Notes: a model not told the origin generated them from the letters alone. Counted from the first letter of the stretch, positions 13,316 to 13,756 are shown. The stretch: DNA of 64,000 bases from Escherichia coli (GCF_050920415.1 NZ_CP169309.1), one strand, 5' to 3'. Program-made: numbers and translations.

Positions 13316-13756
13316 ATGATGGTAAACAACTTCATATCTCTCCATTGCCTCTCACGAAAGGAACTGGACACACTGATCGAGCACGAATTACAACTGATGC
13401 TGGCTGAAGGCTTTGACAAGTCCCCTATTTCCGCCAAGGCTCTGCATATTCGGCTCAAGGCAAAAGGTATCGTTAACGGTGGTTTAAGTACGCTGAGCAG
13501 CCTTGAGCGAAAACGCCTAATTGCTGCCTATGTTGATCAGCAACTTGGCCCGTTGAATCTACGCCCAAAAGAAAAACAGCAATACGTCAACCGCAAAACC
13601 CGTCAGGCCTTGCTGGCCAGAAACCAGCAGTTGCAGGCGGAAGTCAGTGAACTGCAAGACCAACTGGCGCAGAATACCCTATCGTTGATAGAAATTGTCA
13701 AAGCGGTAAAAATCAATACGGTTATTCCGGTGGAAAGTCTGTTGCCAAACATGTAA
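13316..13756 (+). CDS. Hypothetical 146-aa protein with a C-terminal coiled coil; function unknown
   Basis: The ORF begins 5 nt after dif and has no obvious Shine-Dalgarno sequence. The C-terminal half is heptad-like (NQQLQAEVSELQDQLAQNTLSLIEIV). The N-terminal segment ISAKALHIRLKAKGIVNGGLSTLSS is faintly reminiscent of KfrA-type DNA-binding N-termini (my inference only). Confidence 0.45.
   Translation: MMVNNFISLHCLSRKELDTLIEHELQLMLAEGFDKSPISAKALHIRLKAKGIVNGGLSTLSSLERKRLIAAYVDQQLGPLNLRPKEKQQYVNRKTRQALLARNQQLQAEVSELQDQLAQNTLSLIEIVKAVKINTVIPVESLLPNM

What the first reader, a model, noticed from the sequence alone, without database searches (positions are those of the whole stretch)
13316..13756. 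Orphan coiled-coil ORF starting 5 nt after dif
- **Seen in the sequence:**
  - The 146-codon ORF has its ATG (13316, or 13319) almost touching the XerD arm of dif.
  - It has no recognisable Shine-Dalgarno sequence.
  - Any promoter would have to lie in or left of dif, or transcription would be read-through from hipBA.
  - The C-terminal half is a strong heptad coiled coil, and the N-terminal half is basic with a GGLSTLSS segment.
- **Inference:**
  - If real, it would be the first gene of the island, positioned where IMEX elements sometimes encode Xer-modulating or DNA-binding accessory factors.
  - It could equally be a non-coding accident.
Basis: inference. Interest (0 to 1): 0.5.

Follow-up and report, generated by a model that had tools for sequence, protein, structure and literature searches.

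The report
Decayed GInt ginD remnant beside dif
The open reading frame next to the E. coli chromosome-resolution site dif is the broken leftover of the fourth gene (ginD) of a known kind of mobile island (a GInt), so it is ordinary; the relatives used to show this suggest that this whole group of GInts inserts right beside dif-type sites.

Summary
A 146-codon ORF (13316-13756) starts 5 nt after a perfect dif (13283-13310), has no Shine-Dalgarno sequence, and carries a conserved heptad coiled coil.

It is neither an orphan nor the first gene of an island. Comparison with other E. coli genomes shows a chimera:
- 13311-13359 is the non-coding left end of a GInt, a mobile island with a four-gene operon ginABCD.
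- An internal deletion of about 5.4 kb, with AA microhomology, removed ginA, ginB, ginC and the first three ginD codons. It fused the left end in frame to ginD codon 4.
- One G missing at 13744 shifts the frame and removes the conserved C-terminal helix.

All eight remnant copies examined are annotated by PGAP as pseudogenes. Seven share the frameshift. The eighth keeps the G but has a CAA-to-TAA stop.

Intact GinD (about 144 aa) always follows ginABC and is under strong purifying selection. AlphaFold2 models it as a helical N-domain followed by a long helix that carries the conserved heptad repeat. It is linked by profile comparison to the fourth gene of a Pseudomonas GInt-type element.

Verdict: a pseudogene of a known family, of low interest.

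By-product: this GInt clade sits immediately after a 28-bp dif-type site in several genera and on plasmids. No paper in the held library mentions this.

The parts
13283..13310 (+). Chromosomal dif: XerC arm 13283-13293, spacer 13294-13299, XerD arm TTATGTTAAAT 13300-13310. It serves as the left attachment boundary (attL) of the GInt remnant.
   Evidence: Exact 28-mer, shared with K-12 and other E. coli. Intact GInts begin at the base after ...GTTAAAT.
13311..13359 (+). Non-coding left end of a GInt, carrying the conserved AACTTCATA motif at 13328-13336. It supplies the ATGs at 13316 and 13319 and codons 1-14 of the chimeric ORF. The last two bases (AA, 13358-13359) are microhomology at the deletion junction.
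   Evidence: In E. coli HCP5S3_I2 (L006 7001-7049) and E. whittamii (L012) it matches the stretch between dif and ginA of GInts (L006's own ginA and ginB are truncated). In L006 it runs on as cacgaaaTCAACAGG, and from the ATG gives only a 20-codon ORF by my own reading of that sequence. T at 13317 makes the first ATG; four of eight remnant copies have C there, giving ACG.
13358..13782 (+). ginD-derived sequence, from codon 4 of ginD to the original TAA stop at 13780-13782. It is interrupted by a 1-nt deletion.
   Evidence: 97-98% identical to intact ginD of strains 214-4 (L002 8001-8442) and HCP5S3_I2. PGAP annotates the 100% identical copy in NZ_CP169399 as a frameshifted pseudogene ending at the position equivalent to 13782.
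13744..13745 (+). Frameshift. One G of the GG in intact ctgttGGccaaa is missing, which creates the premature stop TAA at 13754-13756. The conserved C-terminal motif (A-x-H-V/L-I-x-E-L-H-K) is lost.
   Evidence: Alignment with three intact copies. The motif is conserved across the family.
13316..13756 (+). The ORF as reported (146 aa). It is a chimera of a leader-derived N-terminus (residues 1-14), GinD residues 4-132, and a frameshifted tail, PNM.
13898..14092 (-). MbcA/ParS/Xre-family antitoxin gene. It is the first cargo gene downstream of ginD in intact elements and is retained here.
   Evidence: Same gene in the same position after intact ginD in L002, L006 and plasmid L062.
14076..14291 (-). 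Truncated copy (71 aa) of the helix-turn-helix gene that follows the antitoxin gene in intact elements, where it is 110 aa.
   Evidence: Homology with L002 ends at 14325.
16830..16840 (+). ATAAGTTAAAT, an imperfect (9/11) direct repeat of the XerD arm. It is the likely right boundary (attR) of this GInt remnant.
   Evidence: The identical 11-mer, preceded by CTCAAC, forms the right junction of the newer GInt inserted between dif and the remnant in strain R32_14_1F (L004 9000-9010).
16841..16880 (+). Left end of a second, older GInt remnant stacked behind the first (catattgactgttaacttacttcatgaac...).
   Evidence: Nearly identical to the left end of the GInt in Klebsiella grimontii L018. It is followed by another fragment of the element's helix-turn-helix gene at 16896-17073.

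Best explanation
The ORF is a pseudogene: the decayed fourth gene (ginD) of a GInt.

**What a GInt is.** It is a mobile genomic island that moves with its own ginABCD module. GinA and GinB are tyrosine recombinases. GinC is a large protein described as having a recombinase-like fold but lacking catalytic residues. GinD is a small accessory protein.

**History of this copy**
1. A GInt of the clade that inserts immediately after the XerD arm of dif integrated next to hipA. This is shown by comparison with intact elements.
2. An internal deletion of about 5.4 kb, between the element's non-coding left end and ginD codon 3, removed ginA, ginB and ginC. It also removed ginD's own ribosome-binding site and start codon. 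This is shown, with a 2-nt AA microhomology at the junction.
3. By chance the junction put an ATG of the leader in frame with ginD.
4. A single-base deletion then frameshifted the 3' end.

**Consequence.** The resulting ORF has lost its native translation signals and its partner genes, and lacks the conserved first three residues and the last helix. It is most likely not made, and is non-functional if made. This step is inferred.

**How the intact protein is read.** It is a dimerising protein with a helical, helix-turn-helix-like N-domain followed by a leucine-zipper-type coiled coil. It would help GinA/B/C assemble on the element ends and on the target site, as reported for GinD in Pseudomonas (required for excision), Srap in SEs and TnpC in Tn554. 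This is inferred from literature on relatives and from the predicted structure.
For: **Anatomy**
- The intact arrangement dif | left end | ginA | ginB | ginC | ginD | mbcA-like is seen in strain 214-4 and in plasmid L062. Strain HCP5S3_I2 has the same layout, but its ginA and ginB are truncated.
- Window 13311-13359 equals the GInt left end, and sequence from 13358 on equals ginD from codon 4.
- The native ginD start overlaps the ginC stop (TGATG), with GGAG upstream. Both are absent from the window.

**Decay**
- The 1-nt deletion is shared by 7 of 8 remnant copies. The eighth (RMDEC465) keeps the G but has CAA to TAA.
- All eight copies are annotated as pseudogenes by PGAP.
- Changes since the deletion: 1 synonymous, 3 non-synonymous and 1 nonsense. 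Two of the non-synonymous changes hit family-invariant residues, E11K and M17I.
- Intact lineages show pN 0.09 against pS 0.83.

**Family**
- 142 homologues of 140-150 aa were found in Enterobacterales, Aeromonas and Acinetobacter.
- An exhaustive search found 103 cluster representatives at 50% identity.
- ginABC lies upstream in essentially every locus with enough flank.
- GinA and GinB match Phage_integrase or Xer models below those models' curated cut-offs; GinC and GinD match nothing.
- hhalign against the fourth gene of a Pseudomonas aeruginosa plasmid GInt-type element gives probability 89.8% and E 1.8e-6 over 121 columns.

**Literature**
- GInts are defined by ginABCD, and all four genes are essential for recombination (PMC5385486).
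- GinD and Srap have a C-terminal coiled coil, and GInts occur in 7.5% of Escherichia replicons (PMC10214605).
- GInts carry defence systems in E. coli, and hipA/ydeT is listed as hotspot 20 (PMC10121019).
Against: - The fusion is in frame and keeps 129 of 144 GinD residues, including the whole N-domain and the coiled coil. A truncated protein could therefore fold if it were translated.
- No terminator-like site follows hipA, so read-through transcription is possible.
- The remnant persists at about 99% identity in some 21 genomes. This could reflect shared descent, which fits the identical junction, rather than selection.
- I could not compare directly with the experimentally studied P. stutzeri GinD (WP_043942113.1). 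The link runs through a Pseudomonas plasmid homologue of the same length (132 aa).
- No expression data were available.
Confidence: 0.88

Rival explanations
1. The truncated GinD' is still expressed, through read-through from hipBA and initiation at 13316 or 13319. It would then act as a small DNA-binding or dimerising protein. One possibility is a dominant-negative or immunity factor against incoming dif-targeting GInts. Another is a modulator of XerCD at the neighbouring dif.
For: - The fusion is in frame, with the N-domain and the coiled coil intact.
- No terminator-like site lies between hipA and the ORF.
- The remnant lies directly beside the site that new GInts target, and in strain R32_14_1F a new GInt did insert there.
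Against: - There is no Shine-Dalgarno sequence, and the first ATG is polymorphic, reading ACG in 4 of 8 copies.
- The copies carry independent inactivating lesions: a frameshift in seven and a nonsense codon in one.
- Substitutions hit invariant residues.
- The new GInt in R32_14_1F and a tandem filamentous prophage in WL297 both integrated next to the remnant. This gives no sign of immunity or of Xer blockage.
Confidence: 0.06
2. The ORF is a pure chance reading frame in non-coding DNA.
For: The start codon, the first 14 codons and the stop codon are indeed accidental products of a deletion and a frameshift.
Against: Codons 15-143 are 97-98% identical in DNA to an intact gene. That gene is conserved as protein across several genera, with pN/pS of about 0.1.
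Confidence: 0.02
3. The ORF is an accessory gene of an IMEX, an element that lacks its own recombinase and uses XerCD. It would be comparable to the Xer activation factor XafT of TLC-phi.
For: - It lies directly beside dif.
- A genuine filamentous-phage IMEX does integrate at this dif in strain WL297.
Against: - Intact relatives of the ORF are always preceded by two tyrosine recombinase genes plus ginC.
- The right end carries only a 9/11 copy of the XerD arm and no second dif-like site.
- Pfam and NCBIfam give no match to any described family.
Confidence: 0.03

Closest known systems
GinD, fourth gene of the ginABCD operon of GInts (also called Tn6571-family elements; Bardaji et al. 2017, PMC5385486)
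   Same: - Intact relatives have the same operon position, directly after ginC with a coupled start.
- The size is similar (132-150 aa), there is no Pfam domain, and there is a C-terminal coiled coil.
- The upstream genes are two tyrosine recombinases plus a large protein with no recognised domain.
- The element is flanked by imperfect direct repeats of about 11 nt.
- Profile homology to the fourth gene of a Pseudomonas GInt-type element.
   Different: - The window copy has lost ginABC, its first 3 codons, its ribosome-binding site and its last 12 residues.
- The enterobacterial and Acinetobacter clade is only distantly related to the Pseudomonas GinD (28% identity in the hhalign alignment).
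- This clade inserts beside dif-type Xer sites. The held GInt papers do not describe that target; they report an ABC-transporter gene and ssb.
[quoted passage not shown] 2023, PMC10214605)
   Same: It is a small fourth protein of a module with two tyrosine recombinases and a recombinase-fold protein. It has a C-terminal coiled coil and was concluded to be an auxiliary factor for attL x attR recombination.
   Different: - The gene order differs: intA-tfp-intB-srap.
- Srap and GinD form separate sequence clusters according to that paper.
- The loci found here have the GInt order, integrase-integrase-large protein-small protein.
TnpC of Tn554
   Same: It is a small accessory protein encoded after two tyrosine recombinase genes. 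It stimulates site-specific transposition and sets its orientation. Bardaji et al. report low but significant identity between GinD and TnpC.
   Different: - Tn554 has no GinC counterpart and occurs in Firmicutes.
- I did not test the similarity myself.
XafT (Xer activation factor of TLC-phi) and other IMEX accessory proteins
   Different: - IMEXs lack recombinases and use XerCD, whereas this element family carries its own.
- No sequence or family match was found.

Membership tests
GInt GinD | Encoded as the fourth gene, directly downstream of ginA, ginB and ginC in one operon | tested here: met
   Met for the intact relatives. L002, L006, L062 and about 35 loci from a species-representative genome collection have GinA/B/C homologues immediately upstream, and the ginD start overlaps or abuts the ginC stop.
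GInt GinD | The window copy itself retains that operon context and an intact reading frame | tested here: not met
   ginABC and ginD codons 1-3 are deleted. A 1-nt deletion truncates the C-terminus. PGAP marks identical copies as pseudogenes.
GInt GinD | Sequence homology to GinD of recognised GInts | tested here: met
   - hhalign of the family profile against the 132-aa fourth gene of a P. aeruginosa plasmid element (int-int-GinC-like-small gene) gives probability 89.8% and E 1.8e-6 over 121 columns.
- The profile hit P0212 is 48% identical to that protein.
GInt GinD | Small protein with no known domain and a C-terminal coiled coil or helical region | tested here: met
   - No significant Pfam match and no NCBIfam match.
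- AlphaFold2 (pLDDT 88.6) gives a helix over residues 82-123 with a conserved a/d heptad.
GInt (element) | GinA and GinB are tyrosine recombinases; GinC is large and lacks recognisable catalytic motifs | tested here: met
   - GinA matches Phage_integrase at E 2e-5 and GinB at E 8e-10.
- Both have weak XerA/XerC/XerD NCBIfam hits, below those models' cut-offs.
- GinC (788 aa) matches no family.
- Catalytic residues were not inspected one by one.
GInt (element) | Site-specific insertion flanked by imperfect direct repeats of 10-17 nt | tested here: met
   attL is TTATGTTAAAT, the XerD arm of dif. attR is ATAAGTTAAAT, at window 16830 and at L004 9000.
GInt GinD | Required for excision or circularisation of the element | not testable with these tools
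   Shown genetically only for Pseudomonas GInts (PMC5385486). It needs deletion and complementation of ginD in an intact E. coli element.
IMEX (integrative mobile element exploiting Xer) | No recombinase of its own; integration by XerCD between dif and a dif-like site on the element | tested here: not met
   - Intact relatives encode two tyrosine recombinases plus GinC.
- The right junction has only a 9/11 XerD-arm repeat and no XerC arm.
- Dependence on XerCD itself cannot be tested here.
   - No Pfam hit at E up to 10 for the window ORF.
- Only sub-threshold HALZ and DUF2935 hits for the intact protein.
- The PDB profile search found only designed coiled coils.

The most novel reading that the evidence does not exclude
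The ORF marks a clade of GInts that target Xer recombination sites specifically.

**What was seen.** In about 30 loci the element begins at the base after the XerD arm of a complete 28-bp dif-type site. These loci come from Escherichia, Enterobacter, Klebsiella, Acinetobacter, Psychrobacter, Moraxella and Kangiella, and from K. pneumoniae, A. pittii and P. aeruginosa plasmids.

**What it would mean.** If this is real targeting and is not yet described, these would be tyrosine-recombinase islands that home to dif with their own Xer-like recombinases. GinD would be the candidate dimeric factor that reads the XerD arm or the conserved left-end motif. They would also stack as decaying arrays beside dif, and the window holds two such remnants.

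**A more speculative extension.** The retained GinD' fragment might still bind there.
Probability: 0.35. Interest if true: 0.6.

Novelty: already known. Interest (0 to 1): 0.22.

Why it matters
**For the ORF itself, little.**
- It should be annotated as a ginD pseudogene, not as a candidate Xer modulator.
- RefSeq already flags identical copies as frameshifted.
- The analysis explains the whole stretch from dif to 16840 as a decayed GInt, and explains why an ORF seems to 'touch' dif.

**The context has more value.**
- The hipA-dif-ydeT region of E. coli is a listed defence-island hotspot.
- The comparison suggests a reason: a GInt clade homes to the XerD arm of dif and leaves dif intact.
- New GInts, filamentous phages (IMEX) and IS elements then pile up in front of older remnants.
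- If this targeting proves real and undescribed, it would add a class of dif-directed mobile elements that carry their own recombinases. It would also give a defined DNA target for studying what GinC and GinD do.

Tried and rejected
- **Family scans.** Pfam on the window ORF at E up to 10 gave nothing. NCBIfam on GinC, GinD and the window ORF gave nothing.
- **PDB sequence-profile search.** It found only designed coiled coils.
- **Origin of the 13311-13359 stretch.** I first suspected native chromosome or a piece of ginC. K-12 has unrelated sequence after dif. A short-query search showed the stretch occurs only with the remnant, or as the left end of a GInt.
- **Reaching Pseudomonas GinD.**
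  - The exhaustive HMM search and a cluster look-up gave no named Pseudomonas hit.
  - A word-indexed search with GinC reached no Pseudomonas protein among the 120 hits listed.
  - The link was finally made through a tblastn hit of GinC on a P. aeruginosa plasmid.
  - The E. coli GinD accessions were not found in the stored, truncated supplement of PMC10214605.
- **The search for related loci.** It failed with the divergent alignment A4 for lack of a conserved stretch and worked with A3.
- **Right end of the second remnant.** No further attR-like repeat was found near 20000. Its right boundary is undefined.
- **Terminal inverted repeats.** I looked for them informally at the GInt ends. The evidence was inconsistent between elements and I dropped it.

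Full report
**1. What is there**

The window is E. coli terminus DNA. It carries, in order:
- an ECSE_1600-type autotransporter gene (5935-11403);
- hipB and hipA, with hipA ending at 13188;
- a perfect 28-bp dif at 13283-13310.

The reported ORF runs from 13316 to 13756 on the + strand and encodes 146 aa. It begins ATGATG, five bases after dif. No Shine-Dalgarno-like purine run precedes either ATG. No + strand promoter-like site lies between hipA and the ORF, and no terminator-like site follows hipA.

**2. It is not an orphan**

A megablast of 13200-13900 against 5,426 complete E. coli genomes found the whole stretch in only 17 genomes. Many others matched only from window position 13358 onward, at about 98% identity.

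In strain 214-4 that shared part is a 144-codon gene. It is the fourth gene of an operon that starts right after dif:
- a site-specific integrase (466 aa);
- a second integrase (516 aa);
- a 788-aa hypothetical protein;
- the small gene;
- then an MbcA/ParS/Xre antitoxin gene on the other strand.

This is the ginABCD layout that defines GInts, 'genomic islands with three integrases' (PMC5385486). GInts are reported in 7.5% of Escherichia replicons (PMC10214605) and as carriers of defence systems in E. coli (PMC10121019). The latter paper lists hipA/ydeT as hotspot 20.

Pfam and NCBIfam give GinA and GinB sub-threshold matches to Phage_integrase and Xer-type tyrosine recombinase models, and find nothing for GinC or GinD.

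**3. Anatomy of the window copy**

Alignment with three intact copies shows two lesions.

*The 5' lesion.*
- Intact ginD starts ATG CGC GGC AAG GAA CTG.... Its ATG overlaps the ginC stop (TGATG), and GGAG lies upstream.
- The window reads ...CTCTCACGAAA|GGAACTG....
- The 49 nt between dif and this junction (13311-13359) occur elsewhere only with the remnant, or as the non-coding left end of a GInt between dif and ginA. That second context was found in E. coli HCP5S3_I2 and E. whittamii.
- In HCP5S3_I2 the left end continues CACGAAATCAACAGG.... By my own reading, the frame from its ATG closes after 20 codons.
- The window therefore carries an internal deletion of about 5.4 kb, measured on the 214-4 element. 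It runs from the left end to ginD codon 3, with AA microhomology at the junction.
- The ATG at 13319 is leader sequence that landed in frame by chance.
- The ATG at 13316 exists only where a C-to-T change occurred. Four of the eight remnant copies read ACG there.

*The 3' lesion.*
- One G of a GG pair is missing at 13744.
- The frame shifts to ...LLPNM*, replacing ...LLAKHVIRELHKSS*. The original stop is still visible at 13780-13782.
- The lost segment is a conserved C-terminal helix.

**4. Evidence of decay**

- I fetched eight remnant copies. PGAP marks every one as a pseudogene, either 'frameshifted' or 'internal stop'.
- Seven share the 1-nt deletion.
- Strain RMDEC465 retains the G but has CAA to TAA at codon 114. 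The 5' deletion therefore came first, and two independent disruptions followed.
- Other changes that arose among the remnants are one synonymous and three non-synonymous. Two of the latter replace family-invariant residues, E11K and M17I.
- Two intact lineages (214-4 and the newer element in R32_14_1F) differ at 83% of synonymous sites but only 9% of non-synonymous sites.
- The intact ginC-ginD junction is present in 173 of 5,426 genomes. The remnant is present in about 21.

**5. The intact protein**

- The family has 142 hits in the 5.8-billion-protein index. These are mostly 140-150 aa proteins from Pectobacterium, Dickeya, Serratia, Klebsiella, Cronobacter, Proteus, Aeromonas and Acinetobacter. 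All are annotated 'hypothetical'.
- An exhaustive profile search found 103 cluster representatives at 50% identity.
- Conserved features:
  - an N-terminal MRGK-LD--IE-ELQ-ML-EGF;
  - the motifs PIS-K-LH-RL and GGLSTLS;
  - KTR-AL leading into a heptad repeat;
  - a positions L88, L95, L102, N109, I116, and d positions N92, I/V99, L106, L113, V120.
- AlphaFold2 (pLDDT 88.6) gives a five-helix N-domain, one 42-residue helix and a short C-terminal helix.
- A profile-profile comparison links the family to the 132-aa fourth gene of a Pseudomonas aeruginosa plasmid element with the same int-int-GinC-like-small-gene layout. The probability is 89.8% and E is 1.8e-6 over the full length.

From the literature:
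- all four gin genes are essential for GInt recombination in Pseudomonas (PMC5385486);
- the analogous Srap was concluded to be an auxiliary factor for attL x attR recombination in SEs, and TnpC is needed for Tn554 transposition (PMC10214605).

My reading is that GinD is a dimeric architectural or site-selecting factor for the Gin recombinase complex. This is an inference.

**6. Mechanistic verdict for the window ORF**

The ORF lacks ginABC and its native ribosome-binding site. It also lacks the nearly invariant R2 and G3 and the C-terminal helix, and it shows independent inactivation in sister copies. It is best read as a dead gene.

The main rival is a read-through-expressed GinD' that interferes with incoming GInts or with Xer. 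I give this about 6%. In R32_14_1F a new GInt carrying an ABC-three-component system integrated between dif and the remnant. In WL297 a tandem filamentous prophage did the same. The remnant evidently does not protect the site.

**7. Wider context (by-product)**

- In every intact relative with enough flank, the element begins at the base after ...TTATGTTAAAT of a complete 28-bp dif-type site.
  - Chromosomal examples come from Enterobacter, E. whittamii, Klebsiella, many Acinetobacter species, Psychrobacter immobilis, Moraxella and Kangiella.
  - Plasmid examples, at Xer sites with different spacers, come from K. pneumoniae, A. pittii and a P. aeruginosa megaplasmid.
- The left ends share the motif (A/T)A(C/G)TTCAT(A/G) about 17-25 nt in. 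The window keeps it at 13328-13336.
- The right junction is ATAAGTTAAAT, a 9/11 repeat of the XerD arm. It appears in R32_14_1F and at window 16830-16840.
- Immediately after that repeat the window has a second GInt left end (16841 onward), close to that of K. grimontii. It is followed by a fragment of the element's helix-turn-helix gene. At least two decayed GInts are therefore stacked beside dif.
- None of the GInt or SE papers, nor my other searches of the held library, mentions dif or Xer sites as a GInt target. The library is incomplete. The Tn6571 paper in J Antimicrob Chemother, for example, did not turn up in the search for that name, so I do not claim priority.

**8. Scores**

- The finding itself is a pseudogene of a described family that RefSeq already flags. 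Novelty is 'already known' and interest is 0.22.
- The dif-homing behaviour of the clade is the part worth a follow-up.

Noticed in passing
window 13283-13359; loci L002, L006, L011-L053 (left ends); plasmid loci L061-L063: The GInt clade to which the ORF belongs always starts at the base after the XerD arm of a complete 28-bp dif-type site. This holds for chromosomal dif in at least seven genera and for plasmid Xer sites with different spacers in K. pneumoniae, A. pittii and P. aeruginosa. A conserved left-end motif, (A/T)A(C/G)TTCAT(A/G), lies about 17-25 nt in. No paper in the held library mentions this target.
   Followed up: partly
window 16830-17073: ATAAGTTAAAT (a 9/11 repeat of the XerD arm, the likely attR of the first remnant) is followed directly by a second GInt left end and a fragment of the element's helix-turn-helix gene. 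Two decayed GInts are therefore stacked beside dif. The right boundary of the second one was not found.
   Followed up: partly
window 13171-13188 (3' end of hipA): hipA ends six codons early compared with K-12. CGA has become TGA, so the product ends ...HRRLS* instead of ...GRLSREYGSK*. PGAP gives 1305 nt here against the usual 1323 nt. The effect on the toxin is unknown.
   Followed up: no
L003 (E. coli WL297, NZ_CP128613) 1-9030: A tandemly duplicated filamentous prophage (replication protein II/X, major coat protein, Zot-like protein, secretin) is integrated at dif directly in front of the same ginD remnant. A classical IMEX and the GInt remnants thus share this site.
   Followed up: no
L010 (E. 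coli EC42405, NZ_CP043414) 2731-6005: A SIR2-family gene plus an ISNCY-family transposase are inserted immediately to the left of dif, between hipA and dif. This is another element that lands at this site, on the opposite side from the GInts.
   Followed up: no
L004 (E. coli R32_14_1F, NZ_CP074749) 1-9010: A complete newer GInt lies between dif and the old remnant. Its ginD is only 74% identical in DNA to the remnant, and it carries an ABC-three-component system and an AAA ATPase. This shows serial accretion of GInts at dif.
   Followed up: partly
window 15044-16651 (-) and 17344-19308 (+): The cargo of the remnants includes a leucine-rich-repeat protein with an N-terminal (TSK)n repeat and a C-terminal (PSRP)n repeat, and a 654-aa ankyrin-repeat protein. 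Both look like effector proteins. The length of the LRR gene differs between strains (1434-1608 nt or more).
   Followed up: no
L005 (K-12 MG1655) 4283-4750, no counterpart in the window: K-12 has about 470 bp of unrelated sequence right after dif, including the yneL pseudogene. The window has the GInt remnants in that position. Homology to K-12 resumes only at window 20067 (weakly) and at 23554.
   Followed up: no
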